Part shown: one piece after another, positions 2,558-23,474 of the stretch
Layout: each line of letters starts with the position of its first letter
How positions within the stretch are numbered: the stretch's first letter is position 1
The notes under the pieces: model-generated
Databases searched by the model: none
The model's input: the letters and a program-made list of their open reading frames with translations, nothing else
What the model was told of the DNA's origin: nothing
Program-made: the position numbers and the translations under genes
IMG/VR virus record: IMGVR_UViG_2695420728_000009
Span: 1 to 26,294 of that record
DNA: 26,294 bases
Strand: one strand, 5' to 3'
Source of the DNA: a virus
Lineage: Duplodnaviria; Heunggongvirae; Uroviricota; Caudoviricetes

Positions 2558-3348
2558 TTACGCCAGTTGTACGGACACGAACGCATCAGGGTCAGCCAGC
2601 AGCATCAGCGGTGCTGACTGAATCATGGTGAACTCACGCGCCGGATCGCCGGTGGTCACCCAGTTTTTCGGGTAGCGGGCAGAGGCGTTAATACCTTCGC
2701 GCTGTGCGTCCGCATCCTGAATGCAGCCATAGGTGCGCAGACCGCGTGCCTGAGAGTTCCCCAGCACCATCGTGTTGTCCGGAAGGAAGTTCTTTTTGAC
2801 GTCGTTTTCCACGTACTGTCCGGAATACACGACGATCGCCGTATCGCCATACATCCCCTTATAGGACACCGCTTCGCCCAGGTCTTTTACCGCTGTCTCC
2901 AGCTCGGAATTAGAGCCGCGACGGGTATCCAGCTTCTCCTTGACGGCTTTGAAGGAACGGAACAGCGCCCAGCCTTTCGGATCAAACACGATGATATTCA
3001 CCACTCCGCTGGCGTTCAGCGCATAGGCTTCGATATCGTCGGTCGGGTCATACGTGGACTTGTCACGCTTGCTCCACTCCGTACCACCGGACTGTGTGAT
3101 GTTGTTCGCCGCACTGCGGCCCATATCCACCTCAACCGGATCGAAGGCTTCACCGGTCATGGTGTATTTGCCCTTAAGCACAGCAGAAACTGCCTGCATC
3201 TCTTCGACCTGAGCAATGGCCAGCTCTTCGTCTCGCATGTTCTGCATGATGATGCGACGGCGGCGGTAAGCCGGGTCCGCCAGATTCTGCGGATCTTCAT
3301 CCGGCAGGCGACGCAGGGTCATCTGCGGATTCACCTCATGCTTCGGCT
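2558..3348 (-). pseudogene. E: 3' fragment of major capsid gene E (codon ~83 to native stop), separated from its 5' part by the inserted element
   Basis: Translation (V)NPQMTLRRLPDEDPQNLADPAYRRRR...FVSVQLA matches lambda gpE residues ~83-341. In-frame upstream codons give P-K-H-E-V and then a TAG at 3347..3349 where E should continue. The ORF caller's start is a GTG inside E. Confidence 0.9.
3339..3348. repeat. Left copy of the 10-bp direct repeat TGCTTCGGCT (attL-type core) at the element/E junction
   Basis: Exact 10-mer at 3339..3348 and 14528..14537, each precisely where E homology breaks; its reverse complement lies within the E codons K-P-K-H. Confidence 0.75.
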
Positions 3349-3424
3349 ACATGAGTCAAATATGAAAGGATGTGAATGATTTGATTACGTTTTAGCTATA
3401 GAATTGAAATGGAAAATCCTTGAA

Positions 3425-3445
3425 TGCAATACAACGTGCAATACA
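3425..3445 (+). promoter_or_regulatory. Tandem pair of TGCAATACA motifs (12-bp period) near the left end; candidate integrase arm-type sites
   Basis: TGCAATACA at 3425..3433 and 3437..3445. The same tandem pair in the same orientation occurs at 14380..14399 near the other end, between the int start and the right junction. Confidence 0.35.
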
Positions 3446-3482
3446 TGGATGAAAACCATCACTCATTTAACAAGAGGAATCT

Positions 3483-4388
3483 ATGCGCTCACCCAACAGA
3501 ATGCATGAACGCTCAACATTTTATAAGTATATGTCGTTGAATACCGCGAAGATTGTTCTTGATTCATGCAGCCTTAGATGGAGTTCTCCGGTCCTATTTA
3601 ATGACCCTTTTGATGTTCCAAGAGAAGTTATGCCTGGTATTAACGAAATTAATATTGGCAAAGCTTTAGCCCGCAAGTTAATAGCGGAGTTGATTACCCC
3701 CAGAGAAGACATACAAAATTTAAACCCTAGAATTAGAACAATGCTAAGTGATTTCCAAAAGTCATTTCCTTTAGGCATACCCGCAGGATTAATTGAAAGA
3801 TTTCAAGAAATGGTAAACATTCCACCAGTTGGGATTGGCGCTCCTGCGGCAATACAAGAAATGAAAGATGTCTGGCGAGGAATGCTTAATAACAGAAGGA
3901 TTTTGTGTTTATCTGAGAGCCCTATAATCACTCCTATGTGGAATCACTATGCCGATAAATATAAAGGTATAGTTATCGAATTGGATTGTGTAGACTTTCT
4001 GGATAGCGCTTGGTTAATAGCCAAACCTATGAAATACACAGATGAAATGCCTCTAACTCACACTGCTGAAGGGATGGCCGAGTTGCTTTTCATGCCAGAC
4101 AATAAGTCAATTGAATATATCAATAATGAGATAATATTCATAAAAACAGAAGAATGGGCATATGAAAGAGAGTGGAGAATTTCAACCTACGCTAGGCCAA
4201 ATAGCACTGGTCAATATAGCGACTTAAAATTTCACCCTTTTGAGTTAAAATCTGTAATACTTGGTCCTCTTTTTGATGCCAGCGAGTTCGATGAAGTCGC
4301 ATCACTAGTTAAAATGTATCCAAGAGCGAAATTATTTAAAAGTTCATTTGGGAACGACAGAAAAATATCCATAGTACCACTACCTTAA
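3483..4388 (+). CDS. DUF2971-like protein (function unknown), AT-rich cargo gene
   Basis: 301-aa ORF with N-terminal FYKY...LFNDPFD and C-terminal EREWR motifs that I recall as DUF2971 hallmarks. Markedly AT-rich relative to neighbours; convergent with the packaging module. Confidence 0.55.
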   Translation: MRSPNRMHERSTFYKYMSLNTAKIVLDSCSLRWSSPVLFNDPFDVPREVMPGINEINIGKALARKLIAELITPREDIQNLNPRIRTMLSDFQKSFPLGIPAGLIERFQEMVNIPPVGIGAPAAIQEMKDVWRGMLNNRRILCLSESPIITPMWNHYADKYKGIVIELDCVDFLDSAWLIAKPMKYTDEMPLTHTAEGMAELLFMPDNKSIEYINNEIIFIKTEEWAYEREWRISTYARPNSTGQYSDLKFHPFELKSVILGPLFDASEFDEVASLVKMYPRAKLFKSSFGNDRKISIVPLP

Positions 4389-4419
4389 AAGGTCAAATGC
4401 TTTTGACAAATAAAATCTA

Positions 4420-4445
4420 TCGCCAGTTTTACTGGCGACTTTTAA
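4420..4445. terminator. Hairpin between convergent genes (DUF2971-like and Nu1-like); likely bidirectional terminator
   Basis: TCGCCAGT-TTT-ACTGGCGA perfect 8-bp stem at 4420..4438 followed by CTTTTAA, with an A/T run on the other side. Confidence 0.5.
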
Positions 4446-4494
4446 GCAACAAAGAACCACCTAAGCACTCTTCCTACCTATGGTTTCATTTGTT

Positions 4495-5046
4495 TTAACT
4501 TCGCTGATTATCCTTGATATACCTTTCAGCCATATCTGGAATGTTATCTGAGATCTGGTAAGCTCGAATAAATGCTTTACTGACCTCCATCTTAATGAAG
4601 TCCTGATACCGTTTTTCCATGCCAGGAAACTGTCGACAGATCGCAAGTGGAAGACTATCAATGATTGCTCCAACTTCCCCAGTTAATTTCGACAAGGCAT
4701 AAGTCGCAAATGCAGTGTCAATTACCTCACCTGTTTCGCTGGCATTCTTCAGTTCCTGTGCGTCGGCCTGCGCACGCGTAAGTCGATGGCGTTCGTACTC
4801 AATAGTCCCTGGCTGGAGATCTGTCTCGCTGGCCTGCCGCAGTTCTTCAACTTCCCGGCGCAGCTTTTCGTTCTCAATTTCAGCATCCCTTTCGGCATAC
4901 CATCTTATAACGGCGGCAGAGTCATAAAGCACCTCATTACCCTTGCCACCGCCTCGCAGAACGGGCATTCCCTGTTCCTGCCAGTTCTGAATGGTACGGA
5001 TACTCGCACCGAAAATGTCAGCCAGCTGCTTTTTGTTGACTTCCAT
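4495..5046 (-). CDS. Satellite small terminase subunit, Nu1-like: N-terminal ~100 aa near-identical to helper Nu1, C-terminal domain diverged
   Basis: 183-aa translation MEVNKKQLADIFGASIRTIQNWQEQGMPVLRGGG... differs from the helper Nu1 (20171..20716) at 2 of the first ~100 residues, then diverges (NASETGEVIDTAF... versus NARDSAEVVETAF...). No large terminase gene follows. Confidence 0.85.
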   Translation of the reverse strand: MEVNKKQLADIFGASIRTIQNWQEQGMPVLRGGGKGNEVLYDSAAVIRWYAERDAEIENEKLRREVEELRQASETDLQPGTIEYERHRLTRAQADAQELKNASETGEVIDTAFATYALSKLTGEVGAIIDSLPLAICRQFPGMEKRYQDFIKMEVSKAFIRAYQISDNIPDMAERYIKDNQRS

Positions 5047-5270
5047 TGTTCATTCCACGGACAAAAACAGAGAAAGGAAACGACAGAGGCCAAAAAGCTC
5101 GCTTTCAGCACCTGTCGTTTCCTTTCTTTTCAGGGGGTATTTTAAATAAAAACATTAAGTTACGACGAAGAAGAACGGAAACGCCTTAAACCGGAAAATT
5201 TTCATAAATAGCGAAAATCCGCGCGCCTGACGCCCCGTAGCCTGTCAGATCGCCGGAAAGGACCCGCCAG
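5047..5270 (-). other. cos-like packaging site of the satellite: cosB copy with variant cosN
   Basis: 5047..5220 is identical to helper 20717..20890 apart from a single base in the R3 element. R-type TerS sites seen at 5071..5086, 5114..5129 and ~5192..5203. The cosN-equivalent 12-mer (5224..5235, CGCCTGACGCCC) differs from the helper's AGGTCGCCGCCC at 5 of 12 positions. Confidence 0.7.
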
Positions 5271-5291
5271 CCAGAGCGGGCCCTAATTTCA

Positions 5292-5675
5292 TCAACCAAT
5301 CAGCTTATAGCGACCATCCCGTGCATTGCGGCGTACACGCTCAATCTTGAGGCATAGCGCCGCATCTGGCTTTTTTGGGACAGGTACGCGGCAATATTCA
5401 GAAGCGCGAGGAATATTATTTATCCAGTCGATCACTTCACTTAAATACCAGGCCTTACGCCCTTCCGTAACCTGCACACGCTCCGGGAACTCTCCACTAG
5501 CCTCAAGGTTTAGCAGTGTACGCCGACTCAGGGTTGTAATTTCCATCACCTGATTCATATCAACAAGGCGCTCGCTTAAACACATTTTGTCAGCGATAGC
5601 TTTTAATTCCTCTACAGCTGGATTCGGGTACATCATTTCGGCAATTGGCTTAAGGTCATTGTAATCATTTTGCAT
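5292..5675 (-). CDS. AlpA/Xis-family HTH protein with N- and C-terminal extensions
   Basis: 127-aa ORF; core MNQVMEITTLSRRTLLNLEASGEFPERVQVTEGRKAWYLSEVIDWI matches the AlpA (MerR-like winged HTH) pattern. Ends 2 bp from the cos region. Confidence 0.55.
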   Translation of the reverse strand: MQNDYNDLKPIAEMMYPNPAVEELKAIADKMCLSERLVDMNQVMEITTLSRRTLLNLEASGEFPERVQVTEGRKAWYLSEVIDWINNIPRASEYCRVPVPKKPDAALCLKIERVRRNARDGRYKLIG

Positions 5676-5686
5676 TGTATCCCCCT

Positions 5687-6028
5687 TTACACACGAGCCA
5701 GCGGCTGAACAGAAATACCTGAGCCAACAAACGCTGCAATCTTTACTGACAGTTCTTTTACAGACTCAGGCCAGTTCAGAGCATCAACATTTAAGACACC
5801 TGTCTTATAGACCTGAGCCTGTGTTTTTTTCGCGGTGTCGATTTGTACAGCGGAAACATAAACCGCTTTACCTACGCTCGAACCATCCCATACCACCAGT
5901 GCACCTGTTGCATCTTCCTGCATCAGTGGCGTAAATGCAGGAATTACCCCTTTATTAGCTGAAAATATCCCCAGCGTAGTCACCAGTGCTTCAGTGCCAG
6001 CCATGAGTTCAGTGTAATGAGTAGCCAT
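5687..6028 (-). CDS. Head decoration protein, lambda gpD-like (diverged)
   Basis: 113-aa ORF; PLMQEDATGALVVWDGSS...YKTGVLNVDALNWPE...AAFVGSGISV aligns with lambda gp[19 protein letters not shown]...[15 protein letters not shown]...[10 protein letters not shown]. Confidence 0.75.
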   Translation of the reverse strand: MATHYTELMAGTEALVTTLGIFSANKGVIPAFTPLMQEDATGALVVWDGSSVGKAVYVSAVQIDTAKKTQAQVYKTGVLNVDALNWPESVKELSVKIAAFVGSGISVQPLARV

Positions 6029-6037
6029 TGCTCCCCC

Positions 6038-7084
6038 TTAGCCAATGCGAACGGTAACAAAACGATTGATGCGGGCCGGTATTGGCTGTGGTGCTGAATG
6101 TGTCTGCACATATTCAATAGCCGGATCACCAGGCACAATATAGTTTTTCGGTGCAAGTTCGGCTTTAGTCAGCCCCATTCGGATTAGCTCCGGATCCTGA
6201 ATACCGCCATAGGCGACAATCCCCTGAAGAGCCGTATTGCCAAGCACCATCAAATCAGGATCAAGGAAATGTTTTTCAGTTCCGTCCTCGTCGGTATAAC
6301 GCCCGCTGTAAACAACAATCGCAACATCGCCCATATATCCTTTAAAACTCACCGAATCACCAAGGTCTTTAAGGGCCGTTTCCAGTTCGGAATTAGAACC
6401 ACGACGGGTATCCAGAGCCTCTTTTATCGCTCTGAATGAACGGTATTTCTTCCATACATTACCGCCCATAATGATGATATTAGTGACGCCCTCACTAAAT
6501 TCTGCGTAGCTCTCAATATCATCATTTGGATCAAAAGTTTCTTTATCCTTACCTGACCACTCAGTACCGCCAGACTGAGTGATGATATTTTGTGGTTTAA
6601 TATTCCAGTCCAGCTCATAACGTTCAATACCATCGCCCTCAATGATATTTTTCCCCGTTGTGATTGCCTGAACGGCAAGCCATTCAATACGTGCACGAAT
6701 AGCTTTAGCTTGATTTACAATCGCCTGTTTAACTTTAATATTACGCGCCCCAAAAGCATTGTATTGCTCAGGTGATACACCAGCAGGGCGCACAGCTAAC
6801 TTATTTGGATCAATGCTGCTTTTCGGCTTCATATAGCCTGGACGAATTGTTTTTGATTCGTACCCTTCGTCACGTGAAACTTTACTACCCACCATAGGAG
6901 AACAAAACGCTGCAATTGGGATATTTGGATCGTCGATTGTATCAAGAATAATATCGCGCGATCCAAACATTACCGAGCGAGTAAAAAACAAACTGGTAAA
7001 CAACGCATTTAGTTGTTTTTGTACATCTACAGCATTAACCACCTGTACAAGCTGGGTAGGCGAATATAAATCAACCATACGCAT
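6038..7084 (-). CDS. Major capsid protein, lambda gpE-like (diverged; roughly half identical by eye in the C-terminal region)
   Basis: ORF 6038..7291 aligns with lambda gpE over most of its length (e.g. ITQSGGTEWSGKDKETFDPNDDIESYA... versus ITQSGGTEWSKRDKSTYDPTDDIEAYA...; TRRGSNSELETA in both). Start set at ATG 7082..7084 (MRMVDLY, matching lambda MSMYTT). Starts at 7078 or 7099 are also possible; the longer N-terminal extension has no homology. Confidence 0.85.
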   Translation of the reverse strand: MRMVDLYSPTQLVQVVNAVDVQKQLNALFTSLFFTRSVMFGSRDIILDTIDDPNIPIAAFCSPMVGSKVSRDEGYESKTIRPGYMKPKSSIDPNKLAVRPAGVSPEQYNAFGARNIKVKQAIVNQAKAIRARIEWLAVQAITTGKNIIEGDGIERYELDWNIKPQNIITQSGGTEWSGKDKETFDPNDDIESYAEFSEGVTNIIIMGGNVWKKYRSFRAIKEALDTRRGSNSELETALKDLGDSVSFKGYMGDVAIVVYSGRYTDEDGTEKHFLDPDLMVLGNTALQGIVAYGGIQDPELIRMGLTKAELAPKNYIVPGDPAIEYVQTHSAPQPIPARINRFVTVRIG

Positions 7085-7252
7085 CCTCTTTGCATTCATT
7101 AAAAATAATTGTGGATATATGCTATCACCGATATTTGTCATGCGAACACATGCAACCGAGTGCAATGTTGTATAAAGTTTTGGGGTGACAACTTCAGTGC
7201 GGACAATTAGTGTTAATATCTTCACTCCCTTTGGTCGGGATTTATGTAGCAT

Positions 7253-7283
7253 GCCGGAAAATTTATTTTTTCCGGCTTTTTTT
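7253..7283 (+). terminator. Strong hairpin followed by a T-tract, oriented antisense to the surrounding minus-strand operon
   Basis: GCCGGAAAA-TTTATT-TTTTCCGGC (9-bp stem) followed by TTTTTTT at 7277..7283. No plus-strand gene lies upstream, so its role is unclear. Confidence 0.4.
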
Positions 7284-7294
7284 ATTGGCAATAT

Positions 7295-7744
7295 TTAAAA
7301 CGGGATATCATCTCCCCATTGCTCATTATCTCCCTCTGGTGGCTGGCTTCCTTGCTGATCTGCCTGTTGTTTTGCTCTGTTCAGTGCGTCAGTAGCCTGC
7401 CCCTGTTGGCCTTTTTTGCCGCCCGGTCGCACCGATCGCGCACTGATTACGCTGTCTGCGATAACCTGCCAGCCCTGCCGCGTTTCGCCGTTCTGTCCAG
7501 TCCACTGGCTCATCTGCATGTTACCCGCCACGCTCAGGAGTTCGCCTTTGTGATGCTTTGCCAGCGCGTCGGCTTGTCTGCCAAACGCCAGGACAGATAA
7601 CCACAACGTCGCCAGACCGTCATCCGACTGACTGCAGGGCAGTGATACCGCCATACGCGCCAGCGTCATGGGGGTGCCCTTGCTGGTCTGTTTTGTCTGC
7701 GGGTCGTCCACCAACCGCCCGTAAACTGATATTTGCGCCGTCAT
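7295..7744 (-). CDS. ssb: Single-stranded DNA-binding protein (SSB)
   Basis: 149-aa ORF with OB-fold-like N-terminus, Gly/Gln-rich linker and the characteristic acidic C-terminal tail ...DDIPF. Confidence 0.85.
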   Translation of the reverse strand: MTAQISVYGRLVDDPQTKQTSKGTPMTLARMAVSLPCSQSDDGLATLWLSVLAFGRQADALAKHHKGELLSVAGNMQMSQWTGQNGETRQGWQVIADSVISARSVRPGGKKGQQGQATDALNRAKQQADQQGSQPPEGDNEQWGDDIPF

Positions 7745-7998
7745 GCTGCCTGCTCTCCGGACTTAATATTGATTGTTGTCACTTCCTCCGCTTCAGCAAT
7801 CTCCCGTTCGGTCAGCGTGGCAAAGTTTGCAGCCGCCGTTGTCATGAATGCGCTTATCAGTTCGGGATGTGCTTTCGCGTATCCTTCCCCGGCGTTGCGG
7901 TCTATTGCCTTAATCGCCACCCTTAGCCAGTGTTCAGCCATATCAAGGGCGCGGTAATGTGGCTTTATATGTTTGTTCAGTTTTCCTGATGTGTGCAT
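7741..7998 (-). CDS. Hypothetical protein (85 aa), translationally coupled to ssb
   Basis: ORF overlaps the ssb start by 4 nt in the same operon; no family recognised. Confidence 0.45.
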   Translation of the reverse strand: MHTSGKLNKHIKPHYRALDMAEHWLRVAIKAIDRNAGEGYAKAHPELISAFMTTAAANFATLTEREIAEAEEVTTINIKSGEQAA

Positions 7999-8043
7999 TT
8001 TTATTTTTACCCCCTCGTTTAAAAAGTTTTTTGTGCACCACCA

Positions 8044-8274
8044 CCTTGTCTACCTTGTCTACCTGATTAGTTATCAGGCCAGTAATGGCGCGGGTTTCAG
8101 GGAGGTAGACAGCCCCAAATAGCTGTCTACCTCATCTCTACCCGTCTCCTTACCTGTCTACAAAAATGGGTAGATAAGGTAGATAACAGGTAGACAGTGA
8201 AAAATAGTTATCTACCTGCATTAATACATTGAAATAAAAGTATTTTCTTTCAGTCAGGTAGACAAGGTAGATAA
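8044..8274. repeat. Iteron array, GGTAGA(C/T)A in both orientations (10 or more copies); putative satellite origin of replication
   Basis: Copies of TGTCTACC / GGTAGACA / GGTAGATA at ~8046, 8055, 8103, 8123, 8153, 8169, 8178, 8190, 8208, 8257 and 8266, in a non-coding stretch immediately 3' of the primase-helicase gene. Confidence 0.7.
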
Positions 8275-8287
8275 CCATTGCCATTTT

Positions 8288-10039
8288 TTATAAAAACGCA
8301 TCGCAATCATCAGTAGTCGTTGCGTTGGTCTGCGTGACTCCCTTAACTTTTCGCGTAATATATTCATATCCGTAAACTTTCGCCGCTGACCTCATAGCCT
8401 TTCCGAACTCATTCACGCTCAAACATTTCCCCTTTCCTGTGTATGCCATGAAGGCCATATAGACACGGTAAAGGCTGTTTCTGGTCGTGTACTTCACGGT
8501 GTCACCACCACCGCCCATCATTAGCCCACGAGCTTCCTCCAGAAACTCCAGCGCCGCGCAAAGCTCAACAACCGGATCCGTTTGCTGCTTTATTGCCAGA
8601 GCTTCATCACCGTCACGCTGTTCCAGTAATAAAGCCCGTGCCTTTTCAGGGGCAGCAAAATTAGCCAGCAAGCGGCGGATAATTACGGGGATTTCTGCCG
8701 CTATCTTTTCCGGTAATTCCTTGTCTTTTTCGTCCTCCCTTACAATGTTGTCGAACCGGAAAATCACCCGACGGCGTGACACACCTCCGGCCCGTTCGGT
8801 AAAGATCATCGGGTCGTTATTGGTTGCCAGTACCACCGCCCTTATTATCGTCGTGAATCGCTTCTCATATTTCGGGTTAATTTCAACGGGATCGCCTCCC
8901 GTGATTTTCTTGATGCCCGTGCCTTCCCCCGTATATTTCGGCTGATCGGCAAGGACGATAAGACGACTCCCGACAACCTGCGCGCGCCCTCCTGCATCAT
9001 CGAGTGATGTCATCTCCGCGCTTACGGTGTTCTGTTTGCCAGCAAGCAGGGTGGCAATATGGGTAAATGTACTCTTACCGCTTCCCCCGTCTCCGGTGGC
9101 CTCAATGAACATCTGCCAGTCGTAGCGGTTCGCCATAATCATGTATAACGCGGCACATATACGCATCATCTTACGCGGGTCTTTTCTTGCAGCATGTTCA
9201 AGCCATTTATGGAAATTTGGCGCATTATCGCGGATGTTTTCCCCTGCTACTGGTGGCGTGTACTCAATGCCATTGTGCGTGGTGCTCCAGTGCTCCGGCG
9301 AGTGCGGAGAAAATTCCCCCGTTTTCAGGTTAAGCACACCATTAGTGAACGGTAGCAAATCACCGGACGGCTCCCCCATGGGGTCGGCAATAACTTTTAA
9401 CGCTTCCACGGCGTTATTGATTACACGTTTGCTGAACGTGGCCCTGTGCTCTGAATAGATCGCCACCATTTCGCGGCTCAGCTCCATTGTGCTGACCGGA
9501 CACCATACCCCGCCGCGCCATACGTGGACGATTTCACTTTCTGCATGAACACACACACCATCAAAGCGATCGGCAAGTAGTTGTGCACGTTCACTGTCTG
9601 CCATCTGTGAAAGTTGCGCCTTTTGCTTCGTCGGAAGATTAAGCACCAGACTTTCCCCACGCTCGCATTCCTCTTTGAGTCGCGGCAACTGCTCGGATAA
9701 ATCCACTGGGCTGGTGTCAGTAATCCCCGCGTATTCGTGTACGGTCTTCACTCCAGCCACAGCCAGTAACGTAACAATCTGCGTCATGCTGTGCTCTGTG
9801 ATATGTCCTGCGCGGTAAACACGCACACACTGACGATCTTCATCAATGATCCGGTAATCGGTGATATTTTTCAGTTGCTCATCAGCCAGCACGACAGGCG
9901 GCACATCGTCGGCGGCAATATGTTTACCCGCCCATTCCCGCCACTCTTTCGCATGGCTCCACGCATCACTACCTGCAAAGATGATTACCTCTGTCAGTCT
10001 GTCGCGTGGCTGTTTTTTTAAGTTCGGTGCCAGTTTCAT
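8288..10039 (-). CDS. Replication initiation protein: primase-helicase (P4 alpha-like C-terminal / D5_N-SF3 helicase type)
   Basis: 583-aa ORF with Walker A EATGDGGSGKST and the overall pattern of phage/plasmid primase P4-family C-terminal domains; N-terminal region resembles a toprim-like domain. Confidence 0.85.
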   Translation of the reverse strand: MKLAPNLKKQPRDRLTEVIIFAGSDAWSHAKEWREWAGKHIAADDVPPVVLADEQLKNITDYRIIDEDRQCVRVYRAGHITEHSMTQIVTLLAVAGVKTVHEYAGITDTSPVDLSEQLPRLKEECERGESLVLNLPTKQKAQLSQMADSERAQLLADRFDGVCVHAESEIVHVWRGGVWCPVSTMELSREMVAIYSEHRATFSKRVINNAVEALKVIADPMGEPSGDLLPFTNGVLNLKTGEFSPHSPEHWSTTHNGIEYTPPVAGENIRDNAPNFHKWLEHAARKDPRKMMRICAALYMIMANRYDWQMFIEATGDGGSGKSTFTHIATLLAGKQNTVSAEMTSLDDAGGRAQVVGSRLIVLADQPKYTGEGTGIKKITGGDPVEINPKYEKRFTTIIRAVVLATNNDPMIFTERAGGVSRRRVIFRFDNIVREDEKDKELPEKIAAEIPVIIRRLLANFAAPEKARALLLEQRDGDEALAIKQQTDPVVELCAALEFLEEARGLMMGGGGDTVKYTTRNSLYRVYMAFMAYTGKGKCLSVNEFGKAMRSAAKVYGYEYITRKVKGVTQTNATTTDDCDAFL

Positions 10040-10335
10040 TTTTTGCCCCTGAATGCGTTAATCATGCTTTTCATTTTCTGGATGTTTCCCCGCGCTTTTT
10101 CCCTGCTGATGGGCTTACTGCGGGGTGCGGCATATACCAGGGAAAAATCACGCCGGAACTGATAAACAGGCATCACGCAGTCATAGCTATACCCCTCACG
10201 GCGGTAAGTGATGCGCCGTTCTGCCACGCCTTTAATCGTTACCGTGCCGCCGTATTTATCGCGGTAAATATCGCCGTTCATAAATTCAGGCCGAGCGGGG
10301 CCGCTGGCAATAAAGCCAGAATTTTTCATTTCCAT
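10036..10335 (-). CDS. Hypothetical protein (99 aa), coupled to the primase-helicase gene
   Basis: 4-nt overlap with the primase start, same strand; no family recognised. Confidence 0.5.
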   Translation of the reverse strand: MEMKNSGFIASGPARPEFMNGDIYRDKYGGTVTIKGVAERRITYRREGYSYDCVMPVYQFRRDFSLVYAAPRSKPISREKARGNIQKMKSMINAFRGKK

Positions 10336-10352
10336 ATTATTTATTCCTCGAC

Positions 10353-10574
10353 TTAACTCGACTTATTTGATAGCAGGGCACTATTTATTGCGTCATTGAG
10401 TTTTTCTGCTGATTCATCAATAAGTGACAACAGGCCATAAGCAATATTTGCATCTTCATTGTCATTTATGCAATCAAGCCACATATTTAATATTGCTTTT
10501 GCTGAATTATTTAAAGTTAATGAACTTTCTGCACATGCTAACAATTTAAAAAAGACTTCCCGTTCTGTATTCAT
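10353..10574 (-). CDS. Hypothetical small protein (73 aa), AT-rich
   Basis: Compact in-operon ORF; no recognisable motif. Confidence 0.4.
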   Translation of the reverse strand: MNTEREVFFKLLACAESSLTLNNSAKAILNMWLDCINDNEDANIAYGLLSLIDESAEKLNDAINSALLSNKSS

Positions 10575-10766
10575 TTAATCCCCCACCAGCTTACTTTCTT
10601 CCTCAATCAGGAAACTAGCGACACTTCCCGAAAGGCGCGCCAGTAGGCTCGCCAGCGCGGATATATCAGCATCTGTAATTTTGTTCGGGTATACCTCAAG
10701 AAGGCGGCAAATAATTTCTGTCTGGTGCGCACGTTCAGCGGCTTCGTGTAATGTGATTTCCTGCAT
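10575..10766 (-). CDS. Hypothetical small protein (63 aa)
   Basis: Abuts the neighbouring ORFs with no gap; no recognisable motif. Confidence 0.4.
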   Translation of the reverse strand: MQEITLHEAAERAHQTEIICRLLEVYPNKITDADISALASLLARLSGSVASFLIEEESKLVGD

Positions 10767-10951
10767 TAATGCACCTCTTTTAATTCATACACTGCTGAAA
10801 TAATGACTTGTGATAAGCCATATTCTGATGATTCGCTTCTCACCGCAGCAATAGCCGTCTGAACATTAACAGCCTTCACGTTCTGAGTGATACCAATTGT
10901 GTGGCCCAGTGGGTTAACAGCTCGGGCAAATACACGGAAGGTTTTAAGCAC
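10766..10951 (-). CDS. Hypothetical small protein (61 aa)
   Basis: Tightly packed in the same operon; no recognisable motif. Confidence 0.35.
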   Translation of the reverse strand: MLKTFRVFARAVNPLGHTIGITQNVKAVNVQTAIAAVRSESSEYGLSQVIISAVYELKEVH

Positions 10952-11207
10952 GGCACACCTCCTGACGAATACGGGCGGCGAATATCATCACGTAGCCAGT
11001 TGGGGATTGCTGGCGGGCTTCCTGTTCGCTGGCGGCCTCGATGTGTATTACGCGTGGTTGTGCGGTGCTCAGGGCGATAAAACGCCAGATGTATTTATTC
11101 AGGTTGTGCGAATCCCGCCCTTGCGGGTGTGTGGTATGATTTCTCATAGCTACCTCGATACTGTTGCTATCGTTGGTGGTTAGACGCCCTGTATGTGTTG
11201 CGAGCAC
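10944..11207 (-). CDS. Hypothetical protein (87 aa or shorter), first gene of the leftward operon
   Basis: ORF begins just downstream of the divergent promoter region 11208..11286; an internal start (MRNHTTHP...) is possible. Confidence 0.35.
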   Translation of the reverse strand: MLATHTGRLTTNDSNSIEVAMRNHTTHPQGRDSHNLNKYIWRFIALSTAQPRVIHIEAASEQEARQQSPTGYVMIFAARIRQEVCRA

Positions 11208-11243
11208 TGCAGGGCGTTGTTATATAGCAATAAAACATGATAA

Positions 11244-11286
11244 GGTGTGTACCTATCAAGAATCATACTAAGCAATAGGTACACAC
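11244..11286. promoter_or_regulatory. Perfect 12-bp inverted repeat (GTGTGTACCTAT ... ATAGGTACACAC) in the divergent promoter region; candidate operator
   Basis: Arms at 11245..11256 and 11275..11286 separated by 18 bp; the right arm ends at the ATG of the RHH gene and overlaps its ribosome-binding site. Confidence 0.45.
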
Positions 11287-11481
11287 ATGTCAACTATCAT
11301 TCAACGTGATAAACAACCGAAAGGTGCAGGTAAAGCACCAGCATTCCAAGTCCGTATTAACCCAGAATTAAAAGAACAAATGGTTAATGTCGCTGCCAAA
11401 GAAGGGATGAGCTTAGGTAACTGGCTAAAAGAACTGGCTCGTGCCGAACTAATAAAACAAGGAATAACACCTAAAGGCTGA
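11287..11481 (+). CDS. Small ribbon-helix-helix-like DNA-binding protein (YlcI/YnfO-like pattern)
   Basis: 64-aa ORF; FQVRINPELKEQMVNVAAKEGMSLGNWLKELARAEL fits a beta-strand-helix-helix (Arc/MetJ-like) pattern and resembles the helper moron 21105..21338 (IRFPNQMIEQINIALDQKGYGNFSAWVIEACRRRL). Confidence 0.55.
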   Translation: MSTIIQRDKQPKGAGKAPAFQVRINPELKEQMVNVAAKEGMSLGNWLKELARAELIKQGITPKG

Positions 11482-11504
11482 TAATTTGCATAAAGGATTC
11501 TTCT

Positions 11505-12854
11505 ATGACAACAAGTCACAAAATGCTAGAAATCAGTAAAGAACAATTTGATGTATTTTTCTATGGTCGTACACCATACGTAAAAACCTTTTCGGAGGAA
11601 ATCTGTTGGTTCAAATTTATAAAGGATGATGTCACGATCTTAGCAACAATTGTTTTTTGTAAAATAGATAATGATTACAACGCTATATTTCTAGGTAGGG
11701 ATTTAGATAAAAAATTTAGAGCGATTAAAGTAATTGTATCCCGTGAATCTAAAGATGATTTAATTACTGATATGGAAAAAGCCATACCAGAGCTATTATC
11801 ACTACACAAGAACGGTTGTTTTATACAGGGTGACGAATCAGAGTCGGCATTTTCAATATTCCTAGCCAAAGTTCCAGAACATAAAAAAAACGTTTATCTA
11901 AGAATGCTACTTGAGGAACCCAAACACTATCCTGCATTTATTGTTATGCAAGAGTTAGCTTATTGGTGTAAAGATCCTGATGGAATATTCATCAGAGATT
12001 TCCAGAGTGCTTCATTTAACTCTCGCTTATTCGAACTTTATCTAAACGCAGTTTTCTACGAAATGGATTTCGTAATATGCAGAGATTATGCTCAACCTGA
12101 TTATATTATCTCAAAAAATGGCATTGATATTGCTGTAGAAGCTGCCACAGTTGCAGAACAAGAGGAACCTACCGAGAAATTGATACTTGATCATGAGGCA
12201 GTAGAAGATCTTCAGAGATATGTAAAAGAACAAATGCCATTCAAATTTGCCCGCACTCTATTAAAGAAAGTTAGGCATAAACCTGAACCCTTAAAATTAT
12301 GCTATTGGGAACTAGATCATACAAAAGGAAAGCCTTTCATTATTGCTTTACACGATTACTCACGCAGATTTTCGATGAGTATATCAATGCCAGCACTACA
12401 AAGCTATCTGTATGGTGTAGATATGGATTCTGGAAGTAAAATTGAACAACATTTATTTGAAAATCGAAGTATACAATCTAATTTTTTCGGCTCTAATAAA
12501 AATGAGAATGTCTCAGCCATATTACTTGCGACACATGCCACCATCCCAAAATTTGATAGGATGGGAGTAGTGGCAGGGATTGAACAAAAAAATGTCAAAT
12601 CCATCGTTAGAGGTATTAAAACTGATGAAGGCTGTACCCCAATGCCTTTTACTGCTCTTGTCAATGCACCTTCATATCAAGAACCATGGTGTACAGCAAT
12701 ATACATGTTTCATAATCCGAAGGCATTAAATCCTATACGCCCTGAATTATTCCCAAGAGTTATTCATATTTTTGAAGAAGATGGAGAAATAGTTCAATAC
12801 TTACCACCTAATTATATAATCTCATCAACTACGCACGTATTTGAATTTAAGTGA
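11505..12854 (+). CDS. Large unknown protein (449 aa), AT-rich cargo; candidate defence or toxin effector
   Basis: Long clean ORF 23 bp downstream of the RHH gene; very low GC compared with flanking satellite genes. No family recognised by eye; a weak PD-(D/E)xK-like stretch (QPDYIISKNGIDIAVEAA) is noted without confidence. Confidence 0.7.
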   Translation: MTTSHKMLEISKEQFDVFFYGRTPYVKTFSEEICWFKFIKDDVTILATIVFCKIDNDYNAIFLGRDLDKKFRAIKVIVSRESKDDLITDMEKAIPELLSLHKNGCFIQGDESESAFSIFLAKVPEHKKNVYLRMLLEEPKHYPAFIVMQELAYWCKDPDGIFIRDFQSASFNSRLFELYLNAVFYEMDFVICRDYAQPDYIISKNGIDIAVEAATVAEQEEPTEKLILDHEAVEDLQRYVKEQMPFKFARTLLKKVRHKPEPLKLCYWELDHTKGKPFIIALHDYSRRFSMSISMPALQSYLYGVDMDSGSKIEQHLFENRSIQSNFFGSNKNENVSAILLATHATIPKFDRMGVVAGIEQKNVKSIVRGIKTDEGCTPMPFTALVNAPSYQEPWCTAIYMFHNPKALNPIRPELFPRVIHIFEEDGEIVQYLPPNYIISSTTHVFEFK

Positions 12855-12859
12855 TTTCA

Positions 12860-12886
12860 AATCCTATGGGTTTACCCCATAGGATT
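12860..12886. terminator. 11-bp perfect-stem hairpin between convergent genes (449-aa cargo and alpA)
   Basis: AATCCTATGGG-TTTA-CCCATAGGATT at 12860..12886, 6 bp after the cargo stop codon. Confidence 0.5.
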
Positions 12887-12905
12887 ACATCCACTGTCTA
12901 AATTC

Positions 12906-13127
12906 TTACCACTCTCCCCTAATCCATGCCTGCACTTCTGAAAGACGATATGCAACAGCAGTGGAACCAATCTTGATCCGCTTAGGAAATTTTCCTTCCT
13001 TCTCCAGCTTCCAGCGTGTGCTGTTCGCAAGAGTGGTTAGCTCCCGACATTCTTTCTCACGGATCATACGATCGATATTAGGAATGTACTCCAGACCCTT
13101 TTTATCGACAATTGCCATTTTTTTCAT
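12906..13127 (-). CDS. alpA: AlpA-family transcriptional regulator / excisionase-like protein
   Basis: 73-aa ORF; RELTTLANSTRWKLEKEGKFPKRIKIGSTAVAYRLSEVQAWI matches the AlpA HTH signature; immediately downstream of int on the same strand. Confidence 0.85.
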   Translation of the reverse strand: MKKMAIVDKKGLEYIPNIDRMIREKECRELTTLANSTRWKLEKEGKFPKRIKIGSTAVAYRLSEVQAWIRGEW

Positions 13128-13128
13128 G

Positions 13129-14364
13129 TTAACCAGCCTTTTGTTTGAGGATTGTCACTTTTGAATCAGCACCTGCGATGCTATTGAGATATGTAGTCCA
13201 GAGTTCCAGAGCATCCAGTTTTTTAGCCATAAACTTACTCCGGTTGTAAACACCTGCCACGCCAGGTAGCGCATGGCCTAACAGTTGTTCTACTACATAA
13301 AATTCAACACCGAGATCACTTAGATGAGTAGATAGCGTTCTTCTAAGGTCGTGTAGTGACCATTGTTTTTCATGGCCCAAACGTTTACCGATTTTCCCCC
13401 CAATCTTGCTTACGCTTTCTCTAATTCGCAGACTTCCCAGCACATAACCAGTATGTTTTGTCTCTTCGTGAACATCCGTTACCCACTGTCGTAGAATTTC
13501 AGGTACTGGTCTGACGATTTCAACACCAGTTTTTGAGTGATCTTTTGGTACAGTCCAAACCCAACTTTCGAGATCCCATTCGCTCCATTCTGATAATCGG
13601 GCTTCACTCATTCGACATCCAAATACTGTACAAAGCACAAACATTTTTCGCGTGTATTCAGACATTAGTTTTAAATCAGGCTCGACAAAAATTGCCTTCC
13701 AGAGCTGGCCGAGTTCGGCTTCATCCAGAACCCGATCCCGCTTACCTGCAATCTGCCCCACATCACTCATGCGCAAATCCTTTAAAGCATCACACGTCGC
13801 GTACTGGCGTACCCGACAAAAACGAAGAGCTAATTTAGTGTCAGAAAAAACATACGCCGCCATAACTGGTGCATTACGTTTAATTCGGTCAAAACAGTCC
13901 AGCCATTCATATAGGTGAGTGTCATTTACGGGCAAATGACCGATATAGGGAAAGATATGCTTTCGAAATCTGCCAAGCGTTACAGCATGAGTTTTACGAC
14001 GCACCTTACAGTAATTTTCATACCAGTAATTTAGTGCATCCTCCACTGTGACCGGCTTTAAGCGTTCTTCAGCCTGAATCTTAATCTGGATACGCGGATC
14101 ACGTTTGTCAGCCAACCAACCACGGCACTCGTCGCGCTTTTCCCTTGCCTGTTTGAGTGACATATCAGGATATTTACCCAACGTTAGCCAGACCGGAGCA
14201 GCCCGGCCACCTGCTAACCTGTAGAAGAAAACAAAGCTCACAGCCCCTTTAGTACTCACACGAATAGAAAGCCCCTTTCCATCAGCAATGGTGATCTGCT
14301 TTTCTCTGGGTTTCCCCAGATATCCTTTAAGCGCTTTGTCGCTCAGTTTGTTCTCGCCAGCCAT
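13129..14364 (-). CDS. int: Tyrosine site-specific integrase (P4-type)
   Basis: N-terminus MAGENKLSDKALKGYLGKPREKQITIADGKGLSIRVSTKG... typical of the P4-integrase N-terminal domain; C-terminal catalytic region with HDLRRT and LLGH motifs and a Tyr-containing tail. Start set at ATG 14362..14364; the 17 upstream codons are extension. Confidence 0.9.
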   Translation of the reverse strand: MAGENKLSDKALKGYLGKPREKQITIADGKGLSIRVSTKGAVSFVFFYRLAGGRAAPVWLTLGKYPDMSLKQAREKRDECRGWLADKRDPRIQIKIQAEERLKPVTVEDALNYWYENYCKVRRKTHAVTLGRFRKHIFPYIGHLPVNDTHLYEWLDCFDRIKRNAPVMAAYVFSDTKLALRFCRVRQYATCDALKDLRMSDVGQIAGKRDRVLDEAELGQLWKAIFVEPDLKLMSEYTRKMFVLCTVFGCRMSEARLSEWSEWDLESWVWTVPKDHSKTGVEIVRPVPEILRQWVTDVHEETKHTGYVLGSLRIRESVSKIGGKIGKRLGHEKQWSLHDLRRTLSTHLSDLGVEFYVVEQLLGHALPGVAGVYNRSKFMAKKLDALELWTTYLNSIAGADSKVTILKQKAG

Positions 14365-14379
14365 TTTTAGCCCCAAAAA

Positions 14380-14399
14380 GCAATACAAGCTGCAATACA
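14380..14399 (+). promoter_or_regulatory. Second tandem pair of GCAATACA motifs (12-bp period); candidate integrase arm-type sites / int promoter region
   Basis: GCAATACA at 14380..14387 and TGCAATACA at 14391..14399; same motif, spacing and orientation as the pair at 3425..3445. Confidence 0.35.
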
Positions 14400-14526
14400 G
14401 AGATGATTGCAACACACAGATAACGAGGAAAATTCAGTGAAAGCACCAGATAAACTTATTCTTTATTATCAAAAGATTAAGTGTAAAAACCAGCAACTAC
14501 ACGAAAGCCTCAGAAAGCCATGCTAA

Positions 14527-14772
14527 GTGCTTCGGCTTGACATATCCCGGTGTAAATTCAGAGGTGGAGCCGCCACGGGAGCGGATAACCTCACCGGAAA
14601 CAATCGGCGAAACGTACAGCGCCATGTTTACCAGTCCCGGAATTTGTGAGAGATAGACTTTCTCCGTGGTGAAGGGATAGCTCTCACGGAAAAAGAGACG
14701 CAGAAACAGCGGATCAAACTTAAATTTCTTCTCATTTGCCGCCAGCAGCTGGGCGGTTGTGTACATCGACAT
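14527..14772 (-). pseudogene. E: 5' fragment of major capsid gene E (codons 1-82), truncated by the element
   Basis: From ATG 14770..14772: MSMYTTAQLLAANEKKFKFDPLFLRLFFRESYPFTTEKVYLSQIPGLVNMALYVSPIVSGEVIRSRGGSTSEFTPGYVKPKH matches the lambda gpE N-terminus, then reads into element sequence (LAWLSEAFV, stop at 14497). Confidence 0.9.
14528..14537. repeat. Right copy of the 10-bp direct repeat TGCTTCGGCT (attR-type core)
   Basis: Exact match to 3339..3348; E homology ends at 14527. Confidence 0.75.
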
Positions 14773-14827: not shown

Positions 14828-15160
14828 TTAAACGATGCTGATTGCCGTTCCGGCAAACGCGGTCCGTTTTTTCGTCTCGTCGCTGGCAGCCTCCGGCCAG
14901 AGCACATCCTCATAACGGAACGTGCCGGACTTGTAGAACGTCAGCGTGGTGCTGGTCTGGTCAGCATCAACCGCCAGAATGCCAACGGCAGTACCGTCGG
15001 TGGTGCCATCCCACGCAACCAGCTTACGGGTGGAGGTGTCCAGCATCAGCGGGGTCATTGCAGGCGCTTTCGCACTCAATCCGCCGGGCGCGGTTGCCGT
15101 ATGTGCCGGGTCACTGTTGCCCAGCGGCTGGTAATGGGTAAAGGTTTCTTTGCTCGTCAT
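14828..15160 (-). CDS. D: Head decoration protein D
   Basis: Matches lambda gpD ([12 protein letters not shown]...AGTAISIV, 110 aa); start at the third ATG of the called ORF. Confidence 0.93.
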
Positions 15161-15169
15161 AAACATCCC

Positions 15170-20170: not shown

Positions 20171-20196
<26 letters not shown>

Positions 20197-20716: not shown

Positions 20717-20940
20717 TGTTCATTCCACGGACAAAAACAGAGAAAGGAAACGACAGAGGCCAAAAAGCTCGCTTTCAGCACCTGTCGTTTCCTTTCTTTT
20801 CAGGGGGTATTTTAAATAAAAACATTAAGTTACGACGAAGAAGAACGGAAACACCTTAAACCGGAAAATTTTCATAAATAGCGAAAACCCGCGAGGTCGC
20901 CGCCCCGTAACCTGTCGGATCGCCGGAAAGGACCCGCAAA
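20717..20940 (-). other. cos: cos site of the helper prophage (cosB R-sites plus cosN cohesive-end sequence at 20894..20905)
   Basis: Reverse complement of 20894..20905 is GGGCGGCGACCT, the lambda 12-nt cohesive end, flanked by ...CGCG and CGTAACCTGTCGGATCGCC... as at the lambda genome ends. R-type sites (CTGTCGTTTCCTTTCT, AGAAAGGAAACGACAG) lie between cosN and the Nu1 start. Confidence 0.88.
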
Positions 20941-23389: not shown

Positions 23390-23474
23390 GTAAGCGTAAA
23401 CTGACCGCCGTATGTAGCCATCAGACGAGAATTGGTAACTTAGACGCCCATCTGATATAGACGGACATCTAAGT

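What the first reader, a model, noticed from the sequence alone, without database searches (positions are those of the whole stretch)
5687..7084. Satellite carries its own diverged capsid (E-like) and decoration (D-like) genes while interrupting the helper's E
The element encodes a gpE homologue (6038..7084, about half identical in alignable regions) and a gpD homologue (5687..6028), but no portal, protease/scaffold, large terminase or tail genes. Together with the disrupted helper E, this suggests capsid-protein substitution: satellite capsid and decoration proteins assembling on the helper portal, protease and scaffold, possibly into smaller capsids suited to an 11-kb genome. The E-like then D-like gene order is the reverse of lambda's D then E. 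This resembles the logic of capsid-forming PICIs, but with a much smaller gene set and an additional knock-out of the helper capsid gene.
Basis: partly seen in the sequence, partly recalled or inferred. Interest (0 to 1): 0.85.

Follow-up and report, generated by a model that had tools for sequence, protein, structure and literature searches.

The report
Known helper-embedded satellite's capsid gene pair
An 11-kb phage satellite sitting inside the capsid gene of a lambda-like prophage carries its own intact capsid and decoration genes, but this element type and gene pair are already published, and the idea that they build small replacement capsids is untested and partly contradicted.

Summary
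An 11,189-bp element (window 3349-14537, bounded by a 10-bp repeat AGCCGAAGCA) splits the E gene of a lambda-like prophage. It encodes an intact gpE-family capsid protein (6038-7078, 42% identical to helper E) followed by a gpD-family decoration protein (5687-6028, 38%). It has no portal, protease, large terminase or tail genes.

It is not new. It is a helper-embedded PICI of the published E:Phage_cap_E:80 group (Tommasini, Mageeney and Williams 2023), who already noted that it "bears its own capsid gene".

The E-like then D-like pair is the conserved late module of enterobacterial PICIs. It is 54-55% identical to c1499/c1500 of EcCICFT073, and the c1499 protein has a crystal structure, 3BQW. 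The same alleles occur in PICIs at tRNA-Pro and cspD/clpS, in a fis PICI, and in a satellite that splits a portal gene. The pair is therefore not tied to disruption of E.

Both genes are under strong purifying selection and were intact in 80/80 and 79/80 related loci.

In EcCICFT073, deleting either gene changed neither transfer nor interference, and packaged DNA was phage-sized. Excision also restores helper E. Capsid substitution remains a possible, untested role. Small capsids are unlikely.

The parts
6038..7078 (-).
   Evidence: PF03864 E=2e-41. PDB sequence hits 3BQW E=2e-121 and lambda gpE E=6e-77. AF2 model pLDDT 81.6, Foldseek TM 0.91 to 3BQW and 0.88 to 7SJ5. RBS and start. dN/dS 0.06-0.09.
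5687..6028 (-). D-like head decoration protein gene (113 aa), 9 nt downstream of the E-like stop
   Evidence: PF02924 E=4e-15. PDB hits: phage 21 SHP 1TD0 E=6e-16 and lambda gpD E=1e-11. 54% identical to EcCICFT073 c1500. dN/dS 0.11-0.24.
14528..14772 (-). 5' fragment of helper capsid gene E (codons 1-81 plus part of the histidine-82 codon at the att core). As integrated it reads on into the satellite for 9 more codons and stops at 14497.
   Evidence: Sequence and translation.
2558..3338 (-). 3' fragment of helper capsid gene E (remainder of the histidine-82 codon through codon 341)
   Evidence: The rejoined protein is colinear with lambda gpE over 341 aa, with 8 differences.
14528..14537 (-). 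attL identity block AGCCGAAGCA
   Evidence: The same block is listed for E_Phage_cap_E_80 elements in the supplement of PMC10111431.
3339..3348 (-). attR identity block AGCCGAAGCA
13129..14364 (-). Satellite tyrosine integrase (411 aa from the ATG used in RefSeq annotation of a 99%-identical element; the ORF is open up to 14415)
   Evidence: PF13356, PF00589, PF14659, PF22022. Annotation of L001.
12906..13127 (-). AlpA-type excisionase/regulator next to int
   Evidence: PHROG 2790 E=6e-18.
8288..10039 (-). D5-type primase/helicase (replication zone)
   Evidence: PF08706, PF19263, PF03288.
7295..7744 (-). Satellite SSB, immediately upstream of the capsid module
   Evidence: PF00436 E=2e-15.
5292..5675 (-). 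Second AlpA-type HTH protein (127 aa), directly after the D-like gene. It is conserved in this position in related PICIs.
   Evidence: PF05930. PHROG 2790 E=1e-49. Same position in L002, L003, L007, L110-L112.
5047..5267 (-). Satellite cos region (cosQ-cosN-cosB), near-identical to the helper's except for the 12-nt cohesive end at 5224-5235 (GGGCGTCAGGCG versus helper GGGCGGCGACCT at 20894-20905)
4495..5046 (-). Nu1-like small terminase gene, chimeric. Residues 1-102 are 98% identical to helper Nu1; residues 103-183 are satellite-specific.
   Evidence: PF07471 E=4e-84. Alignments.
14828..15166 (-). Helper's own decoration gene D, intact (for comparison)
3425..3445 (-). Doubled TGTATTGCA motif near the attR arm. 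The second copy is at 14379-14399.
   Evidence: 2 matches against 0.07 expected. The motif and its spacing (about 81 and 133 bp from the core centre) match the HE-PICI attP motif described in PMC10111431.

Best explanation
What it is. Window 3349-14537 is a helper-embedded phage-inducible chromosomal island (HE-PICI) of the published E:Phage_cap_E:80 group. It is integrated by its tyrosine integrase into codon ~81-82 of the major capsid gene of a lambda-like prophage and is co-oriented with the late operon.

The E-like/D-like pair is the standard late-zone module of enterobacterial PICIs, not a special adaptation to splitting E. It lies in a satellite-restricted sister clade of phage gpE/gpD and is orthologous to c1499/c1500 of EcCICFT073 (crystal structure 3BQW).

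Most likely mechanism (inferred, not shown). Both proteins are made late, either from satellite promoters or by read-through of helper late transcription. The E-like protein is a complete HK97-fold coat protein. It assembles on the helper's portal, protease and scaffold into lambda-sized shells, alone or alongside helper gpE. Its cognate D-like trimer stabilises the expanded lattice. The diverged N-terminal half of E-like, which includes the N-arm and E-loop, is a plausible reason the helper's gpD would not fit.

This gives the satellite a coat-protein supply that does not depend on helper E. That supply is redundant when helper E is intact, as in EcCICFT073, and potentially useful while E is still split or when the helper is defective.

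The 11.2-kb genome would be packaged from its own cos site as about 4 copies (44.8 kb) per full-size head, not as one copy in a small head. Excision then restores helper E.
For: Identity (shown):
- 10-bp att repeat and restorable E.
- Integrase, AlpA, primase, SSB, capsid, decoration and packaging gene order.
- Doubled TGTATTGCA motif at the published spacing.
- 98-99% identical elements covering at least 80% of the query, inside E genes, in 14 complete E. coli genomes.
- The published description and the same identity block (PMC10111431).

Module is generic:
- The same gene order occurs at cspD/clpS, roxA/phoQ (EcCICFT073), tRNA-Pro, fis and inside a portal gene.
- A full-length copy is present in 395 of 5426 complete E. 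coli genomes.

Satellite-restricted clade:
- No phage among 50,697 records exceeds 60% identity; the best is lambda at 42%.
- Homologues split into an E-like superclade (50-99% identical to the window protein) and a phage gpE clade (~41%).

Functional proteins:
- dN/dS is 0.06-0.09 for E-like and 0.11-0.24 for D-like.
- 80/80 E-like and 79/80 D-like ORFs are intact. 81 E-like codons vary only synonymously against 27 with amino-acid changes.
- Complete HK97 fold.
- The D-like gene follows the E-like gene in 79/80 loci. A decoration protein is only useful on an expanded lattice (inference).

Full-size heads and redundancy: EcCICFT073 data (PMC6092414).

cos and Nu1-like gene for packaging.
Against: - No experiment shows that any PICI E-like protein enters a particle.
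- Deleting the orthologues had no measured phenotype, so the selected function may be something other than shell building.
- The authors who induced the type element could not recover particles at all.
- Expression timing and promoters are unknown. A consensus promoter scan found nothing on the coding strand upstream of E-like.
- Whether E-like can use the helper's scaffold and portal is untested, and its N-terminal half is the part most diverged from gpE.
- The helper in this window carries an IS66-family insertion just upstream of its lysozyme gene, so this particular composite may be inactive.
Confidence: 0.55

Rival explanations
1. E-like and D-like replace helper gpE and gpD and assemble on the helper portal, protease and scaffold into smaller (T<7) heads sized for a single 11-kb genome. 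The split E gene ensures that only satellite coat protein is available.
For: - Complete, selected capsid and decoration pair with no other head genes.
- Helper E is unavailable until excision.
- A satellite-encoded capsid-protein homologue does change capsid size in SaPIbov5, where Ccm occupies the pentamers (PMC8569155).
- PmCI172, a PICI with a capsid homologue, makes small heads.
- Point mutants of lambda E can give small heads (Katsura 1983, seen here only as a title in the reference list of PMC6893505; the content is my own knowledge).
Against: - With the orthologous module in EcCICFT073, all packaged DNA was phage-sized and deletions had no effect on transfer or interference.
- The same alleles occur in PICIs that do not touch E.
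- Excision restores E during induction.
- Four genome copies (44.8 kb) fit a lambda head.
- No scaffold-like or size-determining gene was found in the element.
Confidence: 0.12
2. Interference device. E-like acts as a poison or vertex-specialised subunit, like Ccm, that co-assembles with helper gpE and spoils or diverts helper head assembly. D-like competes with gpD.
For: - Precedent of Ccm in SaPIbov5.
- PICIs generally interfere with their helpers.
- The A-domain region is the part best conserved with gpE (0.69 consensus identity), which might allow mixed capsomers.
Against: - Deleting c1499 or c1500 did not relieve EcCICFT073 interference with lambda.
- Of the EcCICFT073 genes after the ori that were cloned and expressed, only c1503 (RppA) reduced lambda plaquing.
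- A poison subunit would not need its own co-diverged decoration protein, yet one is kept in 79/80 loci.
Confidence: 0.1
3. Non-structural selected role. The pair is kept for something other than building heads, for example as a decoy or trigger in defence/counter-defence systems that sense capsid proteins, or as a regulator of helper late functions.
For: - Strong purifying selection with no transfer or interference phenotype in the laboratory.
- The element carries two defence genes (PD-T7-1 and PDC-S31), so it takes part in phage-defence conflicts.
Against: - The whole HK97 fold, including the N-arm, E-loop and spine helix, is retained.
- A matching decoration protein is retained as well, which is more than a decoy would need.
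- There is no direct evidence for such a role.
Confidence: 0.1
4. Recently captured helper genes drifting towards loss, with no function.
For: HE-PICIs and PICIs do capture clusters of helper late genes (PMC10111431).
Against: - dN/dS is 0.06-0.24.
- ORFs are intact in 80/80 and 79/80 loci and across four genera.
- Synonymous sites are saturated against the helper genes; only one 136-bp stretch of 74% DNA identity remains between E-like and helper E.
- No phage has a protein closer than 42%.
Confidence: 0.02

Closest known systems
HE-PICI Eco567.11capE and the E:Phage_cap_E:80 group (Tommasini, Mageeney and Williams 2023, NAR Genom Bioinform, PMC10111431)
   Same: Size is ~11 kb. Integration is in the same codon region of a lambda-type E gene, with a 10-bp identity block; AGCCGAAGCA is one of the listed variants. 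The element is co-oriented with the late operon. The zones are the same: integrase and AlpA, then replication, then late genes. It carries its own capsid gene, the doubled TGTATTGCA arm motif, and a cos region shared with the helper.
   Different: The type element is described as lacking terS and sharing 258 bp at 90% with its helper. This one has a chimeric Nu1-like gene and shares 559 bp at 95.7%. Its accessory cargo (PD-T7-1, PDC-S31) differs from that of the other elements examined.
EcCICFT073 c1499/c1500 (Fillol-Salom et al. 2018, PMC6092414); crystal structure 3BQW
   Same: The gene order SSB, then capsid, then decoration, then packaging gene, then cos is the same. E-like is 55% and D-like 54% identical. 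The fold is the same (TM 0.91). Both belong to the satellite-restricted clade.
   Different: EcCICFT073 sits in the chromosome next to phoQ, not in a prophage. It has RppA where this element has a Nu1-like gene. Its helper's capsid gene is never interrupted, so its capsid genes are redundant by design.
SaPIbov5 Ccm (Carpena 2016; Hawkins et al. 2021, PMC8569155)
   Same: A cos-type satellite encodes a homologue of its helper's major capsid protein.
   Different: The capsid-protein lineage is different. Ccm has a demonstrated role: it occupies the pentamers and converts prolate heads to T=4. It has no decoration partner, and SaPIbov5 is not embedded in its helper.
Capsid-forming PICIs (cf-PICIs, Alqurainy et al. 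2023)
   Same: The satellite supplies its own coat protein.
   Different: cf-PICIs encode the full head and packaging set and take only tails from the helper (abstract). This element has only coat protein, decoration protein and a small-terminase-like gene.
P4 Sid/Psu and PLE TcaP
   Same: Satellite-encoded proteins that act on the helper capsid lattice. Psu is also a decoration protein.
   Different: These are external scaffolds or decorators of a shell built from helper coat protein. They are not coat-protein homologues.

Membership tests
HE-PICI, E:Phage_cap_E:80 group | Integrated inside a helper prophage late gene (E, around profile position 80), flanked by a short identity block | tested here: met
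   AGCCGAAGCA at 3339-3348 and 14528-14537. The flanks rejoin to a 341-aa lambda-type gpE. The same block is listed in the paper's supplement.
HE-PICI, E:Phage_cap_E:80 group | Tyrosine integrase and AlpA at the upstream end, co-oriented with the interrupted late gene | tested here: met
   Integrase at 13129-14364 and AlpA at 12906-13127, both on the minus strand like the helper genes Nu1 through V. Integrase phylogeny was not run.
HE-PICI, E:Phage_cap_E:80 group | Two copies of the doubled TGTATTGCA motif, about 81 bp upstream and 132 bp downstream of the attP centre | tested here: met
   Copies at 3425-3445 and 14379-14399, against 0.07 expected by chance. Distances from the core centre are about 81 and 133 bp.
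HE-PICI, E:Phage_cap_E:80 group | Excision after helper induction, restoring the late gene | not testable with these tools
   Shown experimentally only for Eco567.11capE.
Gram-negative PICI (EcCICFT073 type) | Ordered zones: integration, regulatory, replication (primase, SSB), late (capsid, decoration, packaging gene, cos); about 10-15 kb; no tail or lysis genes | tested here: met
   The element is 11,189 bp.
Phage_cap_E / HK97-fold major capsid protein | Full-length match to PF03864 and a complete HK97 fold | tested here: met
   Profile positions 4-327 of 329, E=2e-41. TM 0.91 to 3BQW and 0.88-0.90 to lambda gpE.
Phage_cap_E / HK97-fold major capsid protein | Assembles into an icosahedral shell | not testable with these tools
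   No multimer prediction or experiment was available. No published particle data exist for any PICI E-like protein in the library searched.
gpD/SHP head decoration protein | Match to PF02924 and to solved gpD/SHP sequences | tested here: met
   E=4e-15. 1TD0 E=6e-16 and gpD E=1e-11.
Capsid-forming PICI (cf-PICI) | Own portal, protease/scaffold and head-tail connectors in addition to the capsid protein | tested here: not met
   Pfam and PHROGs scans of the element's main ORFs found none of these.
Ccm-type capsid size redirection | The satellite capsid homologue causes small heads that hold one satellite genome | not testable with these tools
   For the orthologous EcCICFT073 module, packaged DNA was phage-sized.

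The most novel reading that the evidence does not exclude
In the embedded configuration only, read-through late transcription of the unexcised composite makes E-like and D-like in place of gpE. These two proteins alone then build satellite-dedicated heads on the helper's portal, protease and scaffold. That would be a minimal two-gene capsid-forming satellite, possibly with altered head size. The satellite-specific cohesive end and chimeric small terminase would keep its packaging separate from the helper's.
Probability: 0.15. Interest if true: 0.7.

Novelty: already known. Interest (0 to 1): 0.3.

Why it matters
The element type, its integration into E and its carriage of a capsid gene were published in 2023. 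The capsid/decoration pair of E. coli PICIs has been known since 2018, and a crystal structure of one member has been public since 2008.

What remains open is what this pair is for. It is strongly conserved and restricted to satellites, yet appears dispensable in the laboratory.

Embedded satellites that split E are the one natural setting where the pair would not be redundant. They are therefore the right system for testing whether a satellite can substitute only the coat and decoration proteins of its helper.

Tried and rejected
1. The Rfam gathering-threshold scan of the whole window found nothing, including no C4/isrK-type immunity RNA.

2. The consensus promoter/terminator scan of 3300-8400 gave fewer promoter-like sites than shuffles and none on the coding strand upstream of E-like. 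The hairpin at 7253-7276 has its T-run on the opposite strand.

3. The genome-contig scan for the variant cohesive end returned only chance hits in GC-rich genomes. None had a cos context. The collection holds one genome per species, so it was the wrong tool for this question.

4. After 10 loci I thought the variant cohesive end separated embedded from chromosomal PICIs perfectly: 4/4 against 6/6. In 80 further loci, 10 of the 46 E-embedded elements with a detected cos carry the lambda-type end. The association is only an enrichment.

5. The 68-aa ORF that precedes E-like in EcCICFT073 has no counterpart in the window.

6. The 417-aa TTG-started ORF (6038-7291) was rejected as the E-like gene. 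The upstream 69 in-frame codons have no homology, and the RBS sits at 7078.

7. The satellite's 127-aa HTH protein and Nu1-like protein are not RppA homologues. There is only a weak 31% match over the wHTH domain.

8. The 'recent capture from the helper' idea was rejected on selection and distribution data.
Full report
**What is in the window**

The minus strand carries a lambda-type late operon: Nu1 (20171-20716), A, W, portal B, protease C, and D (14828-15166). The first 81 codons of E follow (14772 down to 14528). Beyond an 11-kb insert lie the rest of E (3338 down to 2558), then FI, FII, Z, U and V.

The insert has lower GC content than its flanks. It is bounded by a 10-bp direct repeat, AGCCGAAGCA, at 14528-14537 and 3339-3348. 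The element is therefore 11,189 bp.

Removing the insert and one repeat copy gives an uninterrupted 341-aa protein. It is colinear with lambda gpE and differs at 8 residues. The helper's E is interrupted, not destroyed.

**Checking the observation**

The E-like ORF ends at 6038 and matches Pfam Phage_cap_E over nearly the whole profile (E=2e-41). The D-like ORF (5687-6028) matches the gpD family (E=4e-15).

The better start for E-like is the ATG at 7078. It has AAGAGG 6 nt upstream and agrees with RefSeq annotation of a 99%-identical element.

Against the helper's own proteins:
- E-like is 42% identical. The N-terminal ~160 residues are clearly the most diverged and the C-terminal half is much better conserved.
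- D-like is 38% identical.

The order E then D is the reverse of the helper's D then E.

The rest of the insert, on the same strand, encodes:
- integrase and an AlpA-type regulator
- small ORFs, including an Icd-like protein
- DUF4222, a D5-type primase and SSB
- a second AlpA-type protein after the capsid pair
- a Nu1-family small terminase

Two defence-type genes lie on the opposite strand. There is no portal, protease, scaffold, large terminase or tail gene.

**It is a published element type**

A full-text search found Tommasini, Mageeney and Williams 2023 (PMC10111431). [quoted passage not shown] They report 201 similar elements at the site they call E:Phage_cap_E:80.

Their supplement lists 'agccgaagca' as an identity block for several members. 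Their attP-arm motif, a doubled TGTATTGCA, occurs in the window at 3425-3445 and 14379-14399. That is about 81 and 133 bp from the core, as they describe, against 0.07 matches expected by chance.

Elements 98-99% identical and covering at least 80% of the query lie inside E genes in 14 complete E. coli genomes. Membership of this family is therefore met on every feature I could test.

**The capsid pair is generic to enterobacterial PICIs**

The E-like/D-like DNA is present full-length in 395 of 5426 complete E. coli genomes. Genes 95.4-97.5% identical in DNA sit in PICIs at tRNA-Pro (L110), at cspD/clpS (L111) and inside E (L112, L003). The 99%-identical element L001 is also embedded in E.

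More distant copies, always in the order E then D and usually after SSB, occur in:
- a cspD/clpS PICI (L002)
- the roxA/phoQ PICI family that includes EcCICFT073 (L004-L006, L011)
- a Serratia PICI next to fis (L007)
- an Edwardsiella satellite embedded in a portal gene, whose helper keeps intact D and E (L009)

The window proteins are 55% and 54% identical to EcCICFT073 c1499 and c1500. The pair therefore predates and is independent of the habit of integrating into E.

**The pair is satellite-restricted, ancient and selected**

No record among 50,697 phage genomes encodes a protein more than 60% identical to E-like. The best is lambda gpE at 42%.

Homologues from a 5.8-billion-protein search fall into two groups: an E-like superclade (50-99% identical to the window protein) and the phage gpE clade (~41%). 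The members whose contexts I examined are all in PICIs.

Nei-Gojobori estimates give dN/dS of 0.06-0.09 for E-like in unsaturated comparisons and 0.11-0.24 for D-like. These values are as low as or lower than those of the neighbouring SSB gene.

In 80 further loci from viral contigs, E-like is an intact ORF in 80 and D-like in 79. Among 41 E-like alleles, 81 codons vary only synonymously and 27 change the amino acid. These are working genes, not remnants.

**Fold**

An AlphaFold2 model built on 68 sequences has mean pLDDT 81.6 and pTM 0.83. It shows N-terminal helices, a long hairpin at about residues 58-90, a 34-residue spine helix, and the sheet-rich P and A domains.

Foldseek's best match is PDB 3BQW, 'putative capsid protein of prophage (E. 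coli CFT073)', at TM 0.91. Next is lambda gpE (7SJ5, TM 0.88-0.90). By sequence, 3BQW matches at E=2e-121.

D-like matches phage 21 SHP and lambda gpD by sequence.

The consensus comparison between the satellite and phage clades shows the A-domain as the most alike (0.69). The N-arm, the segment at residues 34-57 and the spine helix are the least alike (0.33-0.42), and the E-loop is intermediate at 0.51. From my own knowledge of the lambda capsid structures, gpD docks on the E-loop and N-arm of gpE. Divergence there would explain why the satellite needs its own decoration protein. This is an inference.

**What the published experiments say about function**

In EcCICFT073 (Fillol-Salom et al. 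2018, PMC6092414):
- Deleting c1499 or c1500 changed neither island transfer nor interference with lambda.
- An island whose marker is inserted into c1499 transfers at 1e5-1e6 per ml.
- All DNA packaged with lambda as helper was phage-sized.

In the 2019 follow-up, only c1503 (RppA) reduced lambda plaquing among the genes after the origin that were expressed from a plasmid. A 2019 review states the same conclusion about full-size capsids.

For the embedded type element, precise excision reached 42-98% by 2-3 h after induction. No particles could be recovered. The authors themselves suggest the captured copy may act as a "backup intact copy". I found no later paper that assigns a function.

**Best reading**

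The pair most likely does build or join real shells. Three points support this:
- A full HK97 fold is kept.
- A co-diverged decoration protein is kept with it in 79/80 loci.
- Both are under tight constraint.

Because the satellite has no portal, protease or scaffold, any such shell must form on helper parts. The orthologue data point to full-size heads. Four copies of 11,189 bp make 44.8 kb, about 92% of the lambda genome length.

In chromosomal PICIs this supply is redundant with helper gpE, which fits the lack of phenotype. In an embedded satellite it could matter during the period when E is still split, or with a defective helper. The steps about assembly, timing and head size are inferred, not shown.

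The small-capsid version, a poison-subunit role and a non-structural role remain possible at roughly 10% each. Drift after recent capture is excluded.

**Packaging features seen along the way**

The satellite shares 559 bp at 95.7% identity with the helper (4709-5267 against 20379-20937). This covers cosQ, cosN, cosB and the first 102 codons of Nu1.

Within that stretch, the only differences fixed between satellite and helper in both composites compared are five bases inside the 12-nt cohesive end: GGGCGTCAGGCG against GGGCGGCGACCT. Four other sites follow each satellite's own helper, which suggests recombination between the two.

The C-terminal 81 residues of the Nu1-like protein are satellite-specific. 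This is the part that binds the large terminase in lambda.

Across 80 related loci, the variant end is common in E-embedded elements: 33 of the 46 with a detected cos, plus 3 with a third variant. Ten of them carry the lambda-type end, so the link is an enrichment and not a rule.

**Verdict**

The feature is already known, and interest is modest. The value lies in the still-open function of the PICI capsid pair, for which E-embedded satellites are the natural test case.

Noticed in passing
window 5224-5235 (satellite cosN) versus 20894-20905 (helper cosN); shared segment 4709-5267 versus 20379-20937: The satellite and helper cos/Nu1 regions are 95.7% identical over 559 bp. The 12-nt cohesive end, however, differs at 5 positions (GGGCGTCAGGCG against GGGCGGCGACCT). 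These are the only differences in that stretch fixed between satellite and helper in two independent composites. In 80 related loci, 33 of the 46 E-embedded satellites with a detected cos have this variant, 3 have a third variant (GGGCGGAAGGCG) and 10 have the lambda type. Six PICIs with verified chromosomal context all have the lambda type. The variant may keep satellite and helper ends incompatible, or protect the composite from internal cutting.
   Followed up: partly
window 4495-5046 (-): The satellite encodes a chimeric Nu1-type small terminase. Residues 1-102 (the DNA-binding half) are 98% identical to the helper's and carry the polymorphisms of each satellite's own helper, both in the window and in L001. 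Residues 103-183 are satellite-specific (about 38% identical to the helper). The published type element is said to lack terS. Among 80 related loci, this slot holds the chimeric type in 6, a PICI-type Nu1 homologue in 37, and neither in 37.
   Followed up: partly
window 11505-12854 (+) and 3483-4388 (+): Two low-GC genes lie on the opposite strand at the two variable spots of the satellite. Both match anti-phage defence models: PD-T7-1 (E=1e-153, full length) and the candidate system PDC-S31 (DUF2971, E=3e-31). Related elements carry other cargo at the same spots, including a TIR-domain protein and an abortive-infection protein in L003.
   Followed up: partly
window 23388-25923: An IS66-family element sits in the helper prophage 129 bp upstream of the lysozyme gene (22761-23258). 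It has three ORFs of 141, 116 and 537 aa and 26-nt inverted repeats. It cuts a 65-aa ORF on its far side and leaves too little room upstream of the lysozyme gene for a lambda-size holin. This helper may be defective for lysis or late transcription.
   Followed up: partly
window about 7150-7175 (-), upstream of E-like: The segment ACATTGCACTCGGTTGCATGT is conserved upstream of E-like in the four close relatives aligned (with C/T variation at one position). It contains two TTGCA half-sites that resemble the TGTATTGCA arm motif of the att site. It could be a binding site for the AlpA-type regulator that controls the capsid module.
   Followed up: no
proteins P0005 and P0090: Two database proteins (463 and 470 aa) combine the capsid E and decoration D domains in one chain. 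Each comes from a single short contig. They may be read-through fusions or sequencing errors.
   Followed up: no
L179 (IMG/VR contig): This is the only one of 80 related loci with an intact E-like gene but no intact D-like ORF directly after it.
   Followed up: no
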